A DNA stretch of 64,000 bases from Escherichia coli. Its GTDB lineage: Bacteria; Pseudomonadota; Gammaproteobacteria; Enterobacterales; Enterobacteriaceae. Below, piece after piece: positions 36,401-39,400 of this stretch. Numbering within the stretch: the stretch's first letter is position 1; every line of letters begins with the position of its first letter. Made by a program: the position numbers. The stretch lies in assembly GCF_011045215.1 (NCBI RefSeq), contig NZ_CP049201.1. One strand, 5' to 3'.

Positions 36401-39400
36401 AATCCTGATGATGAGAAAATATTTCCCGCTTGAGGCGAGCGAGCGTCTATTTGTTGCGATTGAAGAAGATGATGTCGTTGATGCACAGGTTAGTTTGCCG
36501 CCGACTATTGCACTAAGTTGTACCACCGAAATCATTCATGATAATTACGCGTTATGCCTGCAATTCTGGCTCAATGGCGTTAATCGTCAGGAATTACTGC
36601 GTTTAGTTCGCAAACAAGCCAAAGGCGATGAGCTGACTGCTGATGAGCGCAAACAATTTAAATACATGCGAGCGCGCTACAAGCACCTGCGTTTTGCGCA
36701 ACGGCTGTATTTAAAGAAGCATCAGGCCGGATTTTTATTCGGCAAAACGACCGTTTTTCTGGGACGTTTTCAGGACGGGTTTCGTAACGGTAAGAAAAAT
36801 ATTGTGTCGTATTACGGCAACCTGTTACGGATTTATTTAAGCTCTCCGGTCTGGTCGTTGGTGAACTATTCATTACGCCATAGCCAGTTAGAAAGCGTAA
36901 GCGGTTTTATTGCCTATCGGCAAAAGCAAATGCATGCCCTGAAAGAGATAATTGCCAAACCGCGACTAACCGGCAGGGAATTTCATGATGTGCGAAAAAT
37001 CATCAGCCAGCAGGTTTCTTATTACGACACCTTAAGATCGCTTGATCCTGAAAATAAAGAGGCGTTACAGATTTCCCGTTTCCTCGCCGCCATTAATGGC
37101 CTGATGGGGGATAAACACGACGACATGGTGGCGGATGATATGGAAAACCGCCAGTCGTATGATGCACCGGTGGCGCTGGATAGCGATATTCGCCAGCGCT
37201 TAGAGCTGCTGATTTCGCGTTTTCCGCTATAACCGGAGCAATGATGTCATCTCGTTTGATTATTGCGCTGATTATCATGCTCTTAGCCCCGGGAGTGCAG
37301 GCACACAATTTCGTCACTGGCAAAACGGTTACCCCTGTTTATATTCAGGAAGGCGGCGAGCTGCTTCTGAATAGCGACGACGAAATTCACTACCAAAAGT
37401 GGAACAGCACACAATTGGCGGGAAAAGTCCGCATTATCCAGTATATCGCCGGGCGTAAGTCAGCGAAGAAGAAGAACTCACTATTAATTAAAGCGGTTGA
37501 AGCGGCAAACTTTCCACAGGATCGTTTTCAGCCCACCACCATTGTGAACACCGATGATGCCATCTTTGGTACTGGCTATTTTGTTGTTGGCAAAATCGAA
37601 AAAAATAAACGCCGCTATCCGTGGGCGCAATTCGTTATCGACGGCAATGGACAGGGACGCGTTGCCTGGCGCTTGCCGGAGCAGAGTTCAACCATTCTGG
37701 TGCTGAATAAAGCCGGGCAAATTCAGTGGGCAAAGGACGGCAGCCTGACGCCGGAAGAGGTAGATCATGTCATTGCGCTGGCGCAGAAACTGATCAATGA
37801 ATAAAAAATTCAAAGGATTGAGGGCGTTAGTGAGATGAAGCTGGTTGAACACTACATCATGCGTGGTACGCGCCGTCTGGTGCTGATTATCGTCGGTTTT
37901 CTGATCTTTATTTTCGCCAGCTACTCCGCACAGCGTTATCTGACCGAAGCGGCAAATGGGACATTAGCACTTGATGTTGTGCTGGATATCGTTTTCTACA
38001 AGGTGCTGATTGCACTGGAGATGTTGTTACCTGTTGGACTGTATGTGTCAGTTGGCGTGACGCTAGGGCAGATGTATACCGACTCGGAAATTACTGCTAT
38101 CTCTGCGGCGGGGGGCAGTCCGGGACGCTTGTACAAAGCCGTTCTTTATCTGGCGATACCGCTAAGTATTTTTGTCACCCTTCTGTCGATGTATGGTCGT
38201 CCGTGGGCTTATGCGCAGATTTATCAGCTGGAGCAACAGTCACAGTCGGAACTGGATGTTCGCCAGTTGCGGGCAAAGAAATTTAACACTAACGATAACG
38301 GACGAATGATCCTTTCGCAGACGGTTGATCAGGATAATAATCGCCTGACTGACGCGCTGATTTATACTTCTACTGCCAATCGAACCCGCATTTTCCGCGC
38401 CCGTTCGGTTGATGTGGTTGACCCATCACCCGAGAAACCGACCGTTATGTTGCATAACGGCACAGCCTATCTTCTCGATCATCAGGGGCGTGACGACAAC
38501 GAACAGATCTACCGTAATCTGCAATTACATCTGAATCCGCTGGATCAAAGCCCTAACGTCAAACGCAAAGCGAAATCGGTCACGGAGCTGGCGCGCTCCG
38601 TCTTTCCAGCCGATCATGCCGAACTGCAATGGCGACAAAGCCGTGGCCTGACAGCATTGTTGATGGCGCTGCTGGCCATTTCATTAAGTCGGGTAAAACC
38701 GCGGCAAGGGCGATTTTCAACATTATTGCCACTGACGTTGCTGTTTATTGCCATTTTTTATGGCGGCGACGTCTGCCGTACGCTGGTGGCTAACGGCGCA
38801 ATTCCCCTCATTCCTGGTTTGTGGTTAGTGCCCGGACTCATGCTAATGGGCCTGCTGATGCTGGTCGCACGCGACTTCTCTTTGCTGCAGAAATTTTCCC
38901 GATGAATGTTTTCAGTCGCTATTTAATCCGTCATCTCTTTCTCGGTTTTGCCGCCGCCGCAGGGCTATTGCTGCCGCTTTTTACCACCTTCAACCTGATT
39001 AACGAACTGGATGATGTCAGCCCGGGCGGTTATCGCTGGACTCAGGCGGTGCTGGTGGTGCTAATGACCTTACCGCGCACACTGGTCGAACTTTCGCCGT
39101 TTATCGCCTTATTGGGAGGGATTGTTGGCCTGGGGCAGTTATCGAAAAACAGTGAGCTTACCGCCATTCGCAGCACGGGTTTTTCTATCTTCCGTATTGC
39201 ACTGGTGGCGCTGGTTGCCGGGATATTGTGGACTGTTTCGTTAGGCGCGATAGATGAGTGGGTAGCGTCGCCATTGCAGCAACAGGCGCTGCAAATCAAA
39301 TCGACCGCCACTGCGTTGGGGGAGGACGATGATATTACCGGCAATATGCTTTGGGCCAGGCGCGGTAATGAATTTGTAACGGTGAAATCGCTGAACGAGC

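What the first reader, a model, noticed from the sequence alone, without database searches (positions are those of the whole stretch)
36408..37804. Uncharacterised 274-aa protein and a YtfJ-family paralogue inside the export operon
The 274-aa ORF has no motif I can assign, yet it is translationally coupled to the flippase gene, which implies obligate co-expression. The following ORF is a signal-peptide-bearing paralogue of the periplasmic protein YtfJ, whose own function is unknown. Both are candidates for novel lipid-handling components, such as a periplasmic lipid chaperone.
Basis: inference. Interest (0 to 1): 0.45.

Follow-up and report, generated by a model that had tools for sequence, protein, structure and literature searches.

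The report
CHAD-fold and YtfJ-like proteins, sphingolipid locus
The two "mystery" genes sit in E. coli's sphingolipid gene cluster: one encodes a cytoplasmic phosphate-polymer-binding (CHAD) fold protein always coupled to the lipid flippase gene, and the other a secreted, cysteine-free thioredoxin-like copy of YtfJ, so both are real and conserved but neither looks like a classical lipid chaperone.

Summary
ORFs 36408-37232 (274 aa) and 37241-37804 (187 aa) are intact, under purifying selection (dN/dS 0.06-0.13), and lie in one operon: yghS-yghR-yghQ(flippase)-274aa-187aa-lptF2-lptG2. This is the E. coli sphingolipid locus, which K-12 lost through an IS5 deletion.

In 65 loci from Enterobacterales, Rhodanobacteraceae and Sphingomonadales its start lies -26 to +14 nt from the flippase stop. 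dTMP-kinase-like YghR/S/T genes lie within 10 kb in 69 of 79 loci.

The 187-aa protein is a true YtfJ paralogue (54% identical to K-12 YtfJ). It is secreted and cysteine-free, has a TlpA/DsbE-type thioredoxin fold, and occurs only in enterobacterial loci.

Best reading: a cytoplasmic phosphate-head-group or polyphosphate-binding partner of the kinase/flippase step, plus a lineage-specific periplasmic accessory. Function is inferred, not shown. The link between CHAD and sphingolipid loci appears unreported.

The parts
36408..37232 (+). 274-aa CHAD-fold protein: soluble, basic (pI 9.4), cytoplasmic. It is a divergent member of the CHAD superfamily.
36406..36410 (+). TGATG stop/start overlap between the flippase (yghQ) and the CHAD-fold gene, indicating translational coupling.
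   Evidence: Read directly from the sequence. The equivalent junction is -26..+14 nt in 65 loci and overlapping in 49.
36660..36692 (+). First-half basic helix motif K85-x2-R88-x3-K92-x2-R95 of the CHAD-fold protein.
   Evidence: K85, R88, K92 and R95 are invariant in the locus-associated clade A2. R88 is invariant and K92/R95 are >=90% conserved in the 85-sequence family A1. The motif aligns to 'hqmRvgvRrLR' of CHAD structure 6qv5.
36762..36776 (+). First-half G119-x2-Q122-D123 motif.
   Evidence: Invariant in A2; D123 is invariant in A1.
36984..36998 (+). Second-half motif H193-x2-R196-K197, the counterpart of the CHAD HxxR polyphosphate-contact motif.
   Evidence: H193 and R196 are invariant in A1. 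They align to 'aHrtRiatKR' of 6qv5. In CtCHAD, H253/R256/R260 contact polyphosphate (PMC6537752).
37107..37121 (+). Second-half G234-x2-H237-D238 motif.
   Evidence: Invariant in A2 and >=90% conserved in A1. Aligns to 'LGrhnD' of 6qv5.
37241..37804 (+). 187-aa YtfJ-family paralogue ('YtfJ2'): secreted, cysteine-free, thioredoxin-like fold.
37241..37303 (+). Predicted Sec signal peptide of YtfJ2 (residues 1-21, cleavage after VQA).
   Evidence: Sequence inspection: a hydrophobic N-terminus (max Kyte-Doolittle 2.03 at residue 1) and a conserved A-x-A|HNF junction in alignment A3. No dedicated signal-peptide predictor was available.
37445..37477 (+). Invariant loop 'IAGRxSAKxKN' at the position where thioredoxin-fold enzymes carry CxxC or the peroxidatic Cys.
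   Evidence: Alignment A3 invariants I69 A70 G71 R72 A75 K76 N79. The position follows strand 63-70 and precedes helix 76-89 in the model. The equivalence to the CxxC site is inferred from fold topology, not from a residue-level superposition.
37599..37605 (+). A7 homopolymer inside ytfJ2, at the position where a 153-aa variant allele diverges.
   Evidence: Sequence. Variant P0216 (153 aa, on 120 contigs including complete chromosomes) is identical up to residue 121 and then diverges. That a frameshift in the run is the cause is inferred, not checked at DNA level.
35059..36408 (+). Full-length yghQ, a MOP/Wzx-type flippase (449 aa).
   Evidence: PF01943 and PF13440. NF007773 MOP flippase, weak. 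The K-12 copy is truncated by IS5.
33510..35013 (+). yghS (33510-34223) and yghR (34255-35013): dTMP-kinase-superfamily P-loop proteins and the first genes of the operon.
   Evidence: Family profile A4's best PDB hits are thymidylate kinases, E 9e-8. 32/34 members hit PF02223 weakly.
32644..33336 (-). yghT, the third dTMP-kinase-like paralogue, divergently transcribed.
37835..39981 (+). lptF2 (37835-38905) and lptG2 (38902-39981), a second LptF/LptG permease pair.
   Evidence: PF03739. TIGR04407 at 318 bits and TIGR04408 at 305 bits. The Caulobacter homologues are required for sphingolipid export (bioRxiv 10.64898/2026.04.12.717747).
39979..40013 (.). 16-bp GC-rich hairpin between the convergent lptG2 and spt genes, a terminator-like site.
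40016..44109 (-). spt (40016-41188), acpR (41188-41436), cerR-like reductase (41468-42382) and aasR acyl-AMP ligase (42379-44109): the ceramide-backbone genes.
   Evidence: Pfam. RefSeq annotation. E. coli B enzymes characterised in PMC9386255.
44472..45614 (+). yghO, the homologue of the bacterial ceramide synthase / N-acyltransferase (aca, bCerS).
   Evidence: ORF. Annotation. Assigned as aca (ECD_02850) in PMC9386255. No Pfam hit at E<=1e-5.

Best explanation
SHOWN.
- The window carries the E. coli sphingolipid locus.
- The 274-aa ORF encodes a soluble, basic protein without a signal peptide that adopts the CHAD fold: two four-helix bundles related by pseudo-twofold symmetry. It keeps, as invariant residues, the paired 'basic helix' and 'GxxxD' motifs of that superfamily.
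- Its gene is fused in expression to the stop codon of the MOP-type flippase gene yghQ in three bacterial orders. In 69 of 79 loci it lies within 10 kb of one to three dTMP-kinase-like genes (yghR/S/T).
- Relatives at >=35% identity are found almost only in sphingolipid-producing proteobacteria.
- The 187-aa ORF encodes a cysteine-free, thioredoxin-fold paralogue of YtfJ with a signal-peptide-like N-terminus. In the loci retrieved it is found only in Enterobacterales, next to the CHAD-fold gene, in the same clusters that carry lptF2/lptG2.

INFERRED.
- The CHAD-fold protein works on the cytoplasmic face of the inner membrane as the phosphate-binding subunit of a 'head-group' module (YghR/S/T kinases + CHAD-fold protein + YghQ flippase).
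- Using the conserved Lys/Arg/His surface that in canonical CHAD domains grips polyphosphate, it would bind either the phosphorylated, anionic head group of the ceramide-derived lipid or a phosphate-polymer donor. It would thereby couple head-group phosphorylation to flipping.
- After flipping, LptF2/G2 (probably with the housekeeping LptB) would extract the lipid.
- YtfJ2 would be an enterobacterial periplasmic accessory that recognises a polar or anionic part of the molecule, or modifies it. It would not be an acyl-chain chaperone.
For: Locus identity.

CHAD fold.
- AF2 model pLDDT 97.1.
- 26/85 family members hit PF05235. Four fusion or extended relatives exceed Pfam's gathering score.
- The family profile's best PDB hit is 6qv5, with both motif pairs aligned.
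- hhalign of the A2 clade against a Pfam-positive relative: probability 100%, E 4e-44.

Cytoplasmic and basic.

Conserved basic residues: K85, R88, K92, R95, H105, H193, R196, H237. The CHAD polyphosphate contacts are HxxRxxxR-type residues (PMC6537752).

Synteny.
- Across 79 loci, a flippase lies within 10 kb in 69 and a YghRST-like gene in 69. YtfJ2 (48 loci) and LptF2/G2 (46 loci) occur only in Enterobacterales.
- The stop/start junction is -26..+14 nt in 65 loci.
- In Rhodanobacter the operon reads aasR-cerR-acp-spt-flippase-CHAD.

Kinase-CHAD links elsewhere.
- APH/choline-kinase::CHAD-like fusions.
- Archaeal PPK3 operons pair two dTMP-kinase-like proteins with a CHAD protein (PMC12995831).

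YtfJ2.

Purifying selection on both genes.

LptF2/G2 role by homology.
Against: - No binding, localisation or genetic data exist for either protein. The E. coli sphingolipid product itself is uncharacterised in the literature searched.
- The E. coli protein does not reach any Pfam threshold itself and shows no profile match to E. coli YgiF's short CHAD domain.
- One residue of the canonical HxxRxxxR triad is Ser200 in the second half, so ligand specificity may differ from polyphosphate.
- YghR/S/T are closer to ordinary thymidylate kinases than to the PPK3 homologue 2plr/5h70. Their substrate is unknown.
- Caulobacter makes and exports anionic sphingolipids without any CHAD, YghRST or YtfJ homologue in its locus, so the module is not universal.
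- Relatives below about 33% identity lie in unrelated contexts.
- YtfJ2 and lptF2/G2 co-occurrence cannot be separated from shared ancestry within one order.
- Truncated alleles of both genes circulate in E. coli.
Confidence: 0.5

Rival explanations
1. First reader's idea, applied where it is still possible. YtfJ2 is a periplasmic lipid chaperone that carries the sphingolipid from the flippase to LptF2/G2 or across the periplasm, standing in for the LptC2 that only Caulobacter has. The 274-aa protein is another lipid-handling component.
For: YtfJ2 has a signal peptide and sits between the flippase/CHAD pair and lptF2-lptG2. It is present in 48 of 50 enterobacterial loci and stays in the cluster through rearrangements. 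The enterobacterial loci have no lptC2. The downstream periplasmic steps of sphingolipid export are unknown.
Against: YtfJ2 is a compact thioredoxin fold, not a beta-jellyroll (LptC/LptA) or a LolA/MlaC-type cavity protein. Its invariant residues are almost all polar or charged, and the family is very highly conserved, which is unusual for an acyl-chain binder. The 274-aa protein is cytoplasmic. Rhodanobacteraceae and Sphingomonadales loci lack YtfJ2.
Confidence: 0.2
2. YghR/S/T plus the CHAD-fold protein form a polyphosphate-centred module, analogous to archaeal PPK3 operons. In it the CHAD-fold protein binds polyphosphate, either as phosphoryl donor for head-group phosphorylation or for polyphosphate metabolism that is only loosely tied to the lipid.
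For: CHAD domains are specific polyphosphate binders (PMC6537752). PPK3 operons combine two dTMP-kinase-like paralogues (one catalytic, one regulatory) with a CHAD protein (PMC12995831). YghR/S/T belong to the dTMP-kinase superfamily. In Acetobacteraceae a YghT-like gene directly precedes the CHAD-fold gene.
Against: The locus has no PPX, SixA or Pst genes. The YghRST profile matches the PPK3 homologue 2plr/5h70 only at E 0.018, worse than ordinary thymidylate kinases. The tightest link of the CHAD-fold gene is to the flippase. E. coli already has PPK1.
Confidence: 0.15
3. The two genes are passengers: a decaying or functionally unrelated insertion that merely hitch-hikes in the operon, with no role in sphingolipid synthesis or export.
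For: The locus is dispensable (lost in K-12 through IS5) and absent from about 23% of complete E. coli genomes. Truncated alleles of both genes are common. A solitary second copy of the CHAD-fold gene in Pluralibacter lies among unrelated genes. Canonical YtfJ has no known lipid link.
Against: dN/dS is 0.06-0.13. Gene order and stop/start overlap with the flippase are conserved across three orders at 38-75% protein identity. In Rhodanobacter the gene closes the spt operon.
Confidence: 0.1

Closest known systems
CHAD domains (Pfam PF05235; structures 6qv5 Ricinus CHAD, 3e0s Chlorobium CHAD, 6rn5 Streptomyces PptA 'phosin', the C-terminal domain of E. coli YgiF)
   Different: The sequence is too divergent for the Pfam model and gives no profile match to YgiF. 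The second-half triad reads HxxRKxxS rather than HxxRxxxR. The genomic partners are a MOP flippase and sphingolipid genes instead of PPK, PPX or CYTH enzymes. Polyphosphate binding is untested.
Archaeal/bacterial PPK3 operons (ppx-sixA-cPPK3-rPPK3-CHAD; PMC12995831)
   Same: Several dTMP-kinase-superfamily paralogues are encoded next to a CHAD-fold protein.
   Different: There is no ppx or sixA here. There are three kinase-like paralogues plus a flippase. YghR/S/T are not closer to the PPK3 structure homologue than to ordinary thymidylate kinases. The context is lipid synthesis and export.
Caulobacter crescentus sphingolipid locus CC_1152-CC_1168 (spt, acpR, aasR, cerR, bCerS, cpgABC, flippase CC_1166, LptF2/G2/C2)
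   Same: The same backbone genes, a MOP-type flippase and a second LptF/LptG pair are clustered.
   Different: The Caulobacter head-group genes (a DAG-kinase-like ceramide kinase, Tam41-like, CDP-alcohol transferase and nucleotidyltransferases) are replaced in E. coli by YghR/S/T plus the CHAD-fold protein. Caulobacter has LptC2 and no YtfJ or CHAD homologue.
YtfJ / HI0045 family (PF09695, TIGR01626), function unknown
   Same: Full-length family match, the same invariant 'IAGRxSAKxKN', 'TTIVNTDD', 'YPWxQF' and 'WAKDG' motifs, a signal peptide and no cysteine.
   Different: It forms a separate, faster-evolving clade: about 62-70% identical between E. coli and Citrobacter or Pseudocitrobacter, against 82-98% between K-12 YtfJ and its orthologues in other Enterobacteriaceae. 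Fixed differences include T->P in 'QPTT' and S->K, S->K and S->A in 'GKIEKNKRxYPWAQF'. It is operonic in the sphingolipid cluster rather than monocistronic.
Periplasmic TlpA/DsbE/ResA thiol-disulfide oxidoreductases and peroxiredoxins
   Different: There is no cysteine at all, so thiol-based redox chemistry is impossible. The active-site position is occupied by Gly-Arg-x-Ser-Ala-Lys.
LptC / LptA (the periplasmic LPS hand-over proteins)
   Same: Only the positional analogy: a small exported protein encoded with an LptF/G pair.
   Different: The fold is different (thioredoxin-like rather than beta-jellyroll) and there is no membrane anchor.

Membership tests
CHAD superfamily (PF05235) | All-alpha fold of two four-helix bundles with pseudo-twofold symmetry | tested here: met
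CHAD superfamily (PF05235) | Score above the Pfam gathering threshold | tested here: not met
   The E. coli protein has 0 Pfam hits at E<=0.01. However, 26/85 homologues hit CHAD (best 1.7e-8). Relatives P0301, P0372, P0381 and P0387 exceed 25.6 bits, and P0301 aligns to the E. coli clade with hhalign E 4e-44. This makes a transitive link.
CHAD superfamily (PF05235) | Conserved basic/His residues (HxxRxxxR-type) lining the central surface, duplicated in both halves | tested here: inconclusive
   K85-x2-R88-x3-K92-x2-R95 and H193-x2-R196-K197 are invariant or nearly so and align to the 6qv5 motifs. The fourth position of the second motif is Ser200. The spatial arrangement could not be inspected because no coordinates were accessible.
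CHAD superfamily (PF05235) | Specific binding of inorganic polyphosphate | not testable with these tools
   Requires binding assays (GCI or ITC as in PMC6537752).
YtfJ_HI0045 family (PF09695 / TIGR01626) | Full-length HMM match above the curated cut-offs | tested here: met
   PF09695 at 200.5 bits against 24; TIGR01626 at 212.1 bits against 151.1.
YtfJ_HI0045 family (PF09695 / TIGR01626) | N-terminal export signal and the family's invariant motifs | tested here: met
   Alignment A3 has 44 invariant columns including IAGR, AK, N, TTI-N-DD, Y-W-QF and W-KDG, with a hydrophobic N-terminus and an AxA|HNF junction. No signal-peptide predictor was run.
Orthologue of E. coli YtfJ (b4216), as opposed to a paralogue | Groups with canonical YtfJ and shares its genomic position | tested here: not met
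   It is 54% identical to K-12 YtfJ. The canonical clade is 82-98% identical across Enterobacteriaceae. The split between the two clades appears in 100/100 bootstraps, and E. albertii has both copies. The locus differs. It is therefore a paralogue.
Thiol-disulfide oxidoreductase / peroxiredoxin | Catalytic cysteine(s) | tested here: not met
   Zero cysteines in the protein, and none conserved in the family.
LptC/LptA-type lipid bridge proteins | Beta-jellyroll (OstA-like) fold | tested here: not met
   YtfJ2 has a thioredoxin-like alpha/beta fold. The 274-aa protein is all-alpha. Neither has a PF06835 or OstA hit.
PPK3-type polyphosphate kinase operon | dTMP-kinase-like paralogues of the PPK3 clade together with CHAD and PPX/SixA genes | tested here: inconclusive
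   dTMP-kinase-superfamily paralogues and a CHAD-fold gene are present. No PPX or SixA genes lie in the locus. The PPK3 homologue 2plr/5h70 is matched at E 0.018 only, worse than canonical thymidylate kinases. No phylogeny with PPK3 sequences could be made.
Bacterial sphingolipid locus (Rhodobacteria type) | Clustered spt, acpR, aasR, cerR-like reductase and bCerS-like acyltransferase | tested here: met
   Pfam domains of the four minus-strand genes. yghO is the aca/bCerS homologue per PMC9386255. RefSeq names.

The most novel reading that the evidence does not exclude
YghR/S/T, the CHAD-fold protein and the YghQ flippase form a previously unrecognised, widely distributed head-group module, found in Enterobacterales, Rhodanobacteraceae, Sphingomonadales and Acetobacteraceae. 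The module would build and flip an oligo- or poly-phosphorylated ceramide, or phosphorylate ceramide using polyphosphate as donor. The CHAD-fold protein would be the phosphate-chain-binding subunit that hands the lipid to the flippase. In enterics, the cysteine-free thioredoxin-fold YtfJ2 would receive the anionic head group in the periplasm for LptF2/G2-driven export. This would give the CHAD fold a lipid-linked ligand and would give the orphan YtfJ family its first function.
Probability: 0.15. Interest if true: 0.8.

Novelty: new variant of a known kind. Interest (0 to 1): 0.55.

Why it matters
How Gram-negative bacteria modify sphingolipids and move them to the outer membrane is an open problem. 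A 2026 preprint identifies LptF2/G2 in Caulobacter and states that the remaining components are unknown.

E. coli carries a complete but unstudied version of the pathway in about three quarters of sequenced strains, including BL21 and UTI89. Its head-group genes differ from those of Caulobacter.

Three results make the E. coli system directly testable:
- The "hypothetical" gene coupled to the flippase encodes a CHAD-fold, probably phosphate-binding, protein.
- This gene travels with the flippase and dTMP-kinase-like genes across three orders.
- Enteric bacteria add a dedicated YtfJ paralogue.

These results nominate specific genes for deletion and lipidomics. They also suggest that the unknown E. 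coli sphingolipid is phosphorylated. Finally, they offer a first functional handle on two orphan families: stand-alone CHAD proteins outside polyphosphate operons, and YtfJ.

Tried and rejected
(1) Direct Pfam and NCBIfam scans and a PDB sequence search of the 274-aa protein gave nothing significant. The best PDB sequence hits, a phage tail tube and GatF at E ~0.4, are chance.

(2) A PDB sequence search of YtfJ2 gave no solved relative.

(3) I asked whether the 274-aa protein is the counterpart of Caulobacter CC_1167, the gene next to that organism's flippase. Rejected: CC_1167 is a CDP-glycerol glycerophosphotransferase-like protein, and no Caulobacter locus gene is CHAD-, YtfJ- or YghRST-like.

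(4) I considered YtfJ2 or the 274-aa protein as an LptC2 substitute by fold. Rejected.

(5) I considered YghR/S/T as PPK2 or PPK3. There is no PPK2 Pfam hit and only a weak match to the PPK3 homologue. I kept this only as an analogy.

(6) Single-sequence PDB searches of YghR, YghS and YghT were uninformative.

(7) hhalign of the family against E. coli YgiF found no match. This was a weak test, because the template was a single sequence and a short-type CHAD.

(9) Contexts of distant relatives (25-32% identity) showed no sphingolipid genes, so they are not informative for this clade.

(10) Literature searches found nothing on either protein. The terms were ytfJ, yghO, yghQRST, the ECD_0285x locus tags, and CHAD with sphingolipid.

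(11) The promoter scan found no more sites than in shuffled sequence (12 against 14.5 +/- 4.1) and is not used as evidence.

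
Full report
**Where we are.** The window is E. coli chromosome. Bases 36300-37900 are 100% identical to strain PapM-32-1, and the segment is present at >=80% coverage in 4108 of 5426 complete E. coli genomes. The RefSeq annotation of that record and my own ORF and Pfam scans give the following map:
- pitB
- yghT (minus strand)
- yghS, yghR, a full-length yghQ flippase (35059-36408), the 274-aa ORF (36408-37232), a YtfJ-family ORF (37241-37804), lptF2 (37835-38905) and lptG2 (38902-39981), all on the plus strand
- convergently, spt, an acyl carrier protein gene, a CerR-like reductase and an acyl-AMP ligase (40016-44109, minus strand)
- yghO (44472-45614)

This is the E. 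coli sphingolipid locus. Its Spt, AcpR and AasR were characterised biochemically from E. coli B, and yghO was assigned as the N-acyltransferase (PMC9386255). A 2026 preprint draws the same operons for strain UTI89. K-12 lacks everything from the 3' part of yghQ to the acyl-AMP ligase because of an IS5 element between truncated yghQ and yghO.

- Both ORFs are at the stated coordinates.
- The flippase stop TGA (36406-36408) overlaps the ATG of the 274-aa ORF (36408-36410), with a GGAGAG stretch 9 nt upstream.
- Gaps along yghS to lptG2 run from -4 to 45 nt. The only strong terminator-like hairpins flank the unit, at 32604-32634 and 39979-40013.
- Both genes evolve under purifying selection. dN/dS against three other Escherichia lineages is 0.06-0.08 for the 274-aa gene and 0.10-0.13 for the YtfJ paralogue, in the range of the neighbouring permease genes.
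- The 187-aa protein exceeds the curated cut-offs of PF09695 and TIGR01626 by a wide margin. It is 54% identical to K-12 YtfJ and has a hydrophobic N-terminus ending in VQA|HNF.

**The 274-aa protein is a divergent CHAD-fold protein.** Direct scans give nothing. The case for CHAD rests on these results:
- An exhaustive HMMER search finds 209 clusters of relatives, mostly 270-300 aa. In an 85-sequence alignment, 26 members hit Pfam CHAD (PF05235, best E 1.7e-8).
- Longer relatives exceed Pfam's gathering score. One of them, P0301, aligns with the E. coli clade over 270 columns at hhalign E 4e-44.
- The family profile's best PDB hit is the Ricinus CHAD domain 6qv5 (E 0.0026). 'fKhiRarfKqLRf' aligns to 'lhqmRvgvRrLRs', 'FHelRK' to 'aHrtRi', and 'MGdlHD' to 'LGrhnD'.
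- An AlphaFold2 model built on the alignment is very confident (pLDDT 97.1, pTM 0.93) and all-helical.

The invariant residues form two equivalent sets, as expected for the internally duplicated CHAD fold. The first set is K85/R88/K92/R95 on helix 78-101 with G119/Q122/D123 on helix 109-126. The second is H193/R196/K197 on helix 189-212 with G234/H237/D238 on helix 217-245.

The protein has pI 9.4 and no hydrophobic segment, so it is soluble and cytoplasmic. Canonical CHAD domains bind inorganic polyphosphate across a basic central surface through HxxRxxxR-type residues (PMC6537752).

Two caveats apply. The E. coli sequence itself is below every Pfam threshold, and it gives no profile match to the short CHAD domain of E. 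coli YgiF. The second-half motif also carries Ser where the canonical triad has Arg. I therefore call it a divergent member of the superfamily with untested ligand specificity.

**Its genomic company.** A scan of one genome per species returned 79 loci, and tblastn with all E. coli locus proteins gave their gene order. A flippase homologue and at least one YghR/S/T-like gene each lie within 10 kb in 69 of the 79 loci.

| Group | Loci | Identity to E. coli protein | Gene order around the CHAD-fold gene |
|---|---|---|---|
| Enterobacterales | 50 | 50-96% | Follows the flippase. The kinase, Spt and LptF2/G2 modules are shuffled around this pair in different genera. |
| Rhodanobacteraceae | 5 | ~51% | aasR-cerR-acp-spt-flippase-CHAD; the operon then ends. 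|
| Sphingomonadales | 17 | 38-45% | yghS/R/T-like genes, then flippase, then CHAD. |
| Acetobacteraceae | 5 | 34-37% | A YghT-like gene directly precedes CHAD. |

- In the 65 loci where the flippase precedes the gene, the distance from flippase stop to CHAD start is -26 to +14 nt. It overlaps in 49 of them, at -4 nt in 32.
- In Sphingobium the next genes are a GINT1_N-domain protein (the plant GIPC glucosamine-transferase family) and a GT4 glycosyltransferase. In Acetobacter the flanks are GT4, PMT_2 and GT2 glycosyltransferases. These are head-group chemistry, not backbone synthesis.
- Relatives below about 33% identity sit in unrelated contexts.
- Tandem duplicates (Luteibacter) and a fused double-length protein (P0244) hint at a dimer.
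- Two ~980-aa relatives fuse an APH/choline-kinase-type kinase to CHAD-like domains.

The gene thus belongs to a conserved 'kinase-like proteins + flippase + CHAD' module. That module is distinct from the Caulobacter head-group genes (CpgABC and others), and the Caulobacter locus contains no CHAD, YghRST or YtfJ homologue.

**YghR/S/T.** A 34-sequence profile of the three paralogues matches thymidylate kinases best (E 9e-8 to 5e-5), and 32 of 34 members hit PF02223 weakly. They are therefore dTMP-kinase-superfamily P-loop proteins of unknown substrate.

A 2026 paper shows that in Sulfolobus two 'thymidylate kinases' encoded next to a CHAD protein are the catalytic and regulatory subunits of a polyphosphate kinase, PPK3 (PMC12995831). 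The parallel of several dTMP-kinase-like paralogues plus a CHAD-fold protein is striking. But the PPK3 structural homologue 2plr/5h70 is only a marginal hit (E 0.018), and no ppx or sixA gene is present. I treat this as an analogy, not as membership.

**The YtfJ paralogue.**
- Conserved residues. The 44 invariant columns are dominated by polar, charged and aromatic residues: H22, R64, R72, K76, N79, Q97, T99, T100, N103, D105, D106, E120, Y126, W128, Q130, D134, W143, W163, K165 and D166. This pattern suits a specific polar or anionic ligand, or catalysis, better than a greasy acyl-chain pocket. That is an inference.
- Paralogy. Canonical YtfJ orthologues are 82-98% identical to K-12 YtfJ across Enterobacteriaceae. 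The locus copies are only about 55-70% identical to the E. coli locus copy outside Escherichia. The two groups split in 100 of 100 bootstrap trees, with fixed differences such as QTTT->QPTT. E. albertii carries both copies.
- Distribution. YtfJ2 is found in 48 of 50 enterobacterial loci and in none of the 29 others. This is the same distribution as in-cluster lptF2/lptG2. It stays next to the CHAD-fold gene when lptF2/G2 are moved upstream on the other strand (for example L019, L021, L033 and L051-56). The spacing to the CHAD-fold gene is variable, from 8 to 541 nt in most loci. YtfJ2 is therefore a lineage-specific addition, not part of the core module.

**How it most likely works.**
- Shown: fold assignments, cellular compartment by sequence, conservation, gene order and coupling.
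- Known from homologues: Spt, AcpR, AasR, CerR and bCerS make (dihydro)ceramide at the cytoplasmic face. LptF2/G2 with LptB export anionic sphingolipid in Caulobacter.
- Inferred, cytoplasmic steps: YghR/S/T modify the ceramide head group by phosphorylation. The CHAD-fold protein, made in fixed proportion to the flippase, binds the phosphate-rich product or a phosphate-polymer donor on its conserved basic surface and presents it to YghQ for flipping.
- Inferred, periplasmic steps: LptF2/G2 then extract the lipid. In enterics, secreted YtfJ2 acts on or binds the polar head group.
- Confidence: I put about 0.9 on the fold, paralogy and synteny statements and about 0.4 on the functional model, 0.5 overall.
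- Rivals: YtfJ2 as a true lipid chaperone (0.2), a polyphosphate-centred PPK3-like module (0.15), and passenger genes (0.1).

**Comparison, novelty and verdict.** Both proteins belong to known superfamilies, so this is not a new kind of thing. But a CHAD-fold clade dedicated to sphingolipid loci and coupled to a MOP flippase was not found in any paper I could search. The same is true of a dedicated YtfJ paralogue in those loci. The most recent transport study lists the E. coli locus without commenting on either gene and states that further components are unknown.

I rate it a new variant of a known kind, of moderate-to-good interest. It turns two 'hypothetical' genes in a very common E. coli locus into specific, testable hypotheses about an uncharacterised lipid. 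Its interpretation is partly supported: operon membership and co-expression hold, 'no motif' and 'periplasmic' do not hold for the 274-aa protein, and the chaperone idea remains open but unsupported for YtfJ2.

Noticed in passing
L002 (K-12 NC_000913.3 3130146-3132408), corresponding to window ~36100-44470: In K-12 an IS5 element (insH9) sits between a 3'-truncated yghQ (355 aa against 449 aa here) and yghO. The CHAD-fold gene, ytfJ2, lptF2, lptG2, spt, acpR, cerR and aasR are all missing. The laboratory strain therefore cannot be used to study these genes.
   Followed up: partly
window 37599-37605: There is an A7 homopolymer inside ytfJ2. A 153-aa allele (P0216, seen on 120 contigs including complete chromosomes; also P0229 and others) is identical up to residue 121 and then diverges, as a frameshift in this run would produce. 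This looks like recurrent inactivation or slippage in some lineages.
   Followed up: partly
window 36408-37232 (protein clusters P0029, P0042, P0048, P0055): Several E. coli clusters hold shortened versions of the CHAD-fold protein. One example is P0055: 195 aa, 234 members, starting near residue 80. This suggests disrupted or mis-called genes in part of the population.
   Followed up: partly
protein P0032 (E. coli, 280 aa, 4 contigs): This is a chimeric ORF: residues 1-222 of the CHAD-fold protein are joined to a GspM (type II secretion, PF04612) C-terminus. That implies a deletion or rearrangement fusing this locus to a gsp cluster in some strains. The source annotates the whole protein as GspM.
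   Followed up: partly
window 39979-40013: A 16-bp, GC-rich hairpin lies exactly between the stop codons of the convergent lptG2 and spt genes. It is probably a bidirectional terminator.
   Followed up: no
L067 10765-12803 (Sphingobium wenxiniae); L087 6436-13194 (Acetobacter cibinongensis): In Sphingobium the gene after the CHAD-fold gene carries a GINT1_N domain (plant glucosamine inositolphosphorylceramide transferase family, E 1.5e-28) and is followed by a GT4 glycosyltransferase. In Acetobacter the YghT/CHAD pair is flanked by GT4, a MOP flippase, PMT_2 and GT2 genes. These are candidate bacterial glyco-/phospho-sphingolipid head-group clusters.
   Followed up: partly
L054 10001-11763 and L061 9152-10816 (Luteibacter); protein P0244 (564 aa): Luteibacter has tandem duplicated CHAD-fold genes after the flippase. 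Elsewhere a single polypeptide is made of two full copies. Both hint that the protein acts as a dimer.
   Followed up: no
proteins P0372 and P0387 (~980 aa); locus L010 10001-12931: These are fusions of an APH/choline-kinase-type kinase domain with CHAD-like domains of this family, in a context without sphingolipid genes. They are an independent kinase-CHAD association.
   Followed up: partly
L029 and L039 (Pluralibacter gergoviae and a Pluralibacter MAG): A second, solitary copy of the CHAD-fold gene (56-59% identical) lies outside the sphingolipid cluster. In L029 it sits between a BCCT transporter and an M20 peptidase gene.
   Followed up: partly
L006 / L047 (assembly GCA_005217455.1, labelled Martelella alba BGMRC 2031): A contig of a genome labelled as an alphaproteobacterium carries a complete enterobacterial-type locus, 61-78% identical to the E. 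coli proteins and with the same gene order including ytfJ2. The likely explanations are a mislabelled or contaminated assembly, or recent transfer.
   Followed up: no
window 33337-33509 (yghT-yghS divergent intergenic region): A genomic SELEX study in K-12 lists a weak FlhDC binding peak in the yghS/yghT intergenic region (PMC9962212). This is a possible regulatory input to the operon that contains the two genes.
   Followed up: no
window 37241-37804 against L003 6709-7263: YtfJ2 has an invariant Pro in 'QPTTIVN' where canonical YtfJ has Thr ('QTTTIVN'). It also has Lys/Lys/Ala where YtfJ has Ser/Ser/Ser in 'GKIEKNKRxYPWAQF'. These fixed differences cluster in two conserved segments and may mark a change of ligand.
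   Followed up: partly
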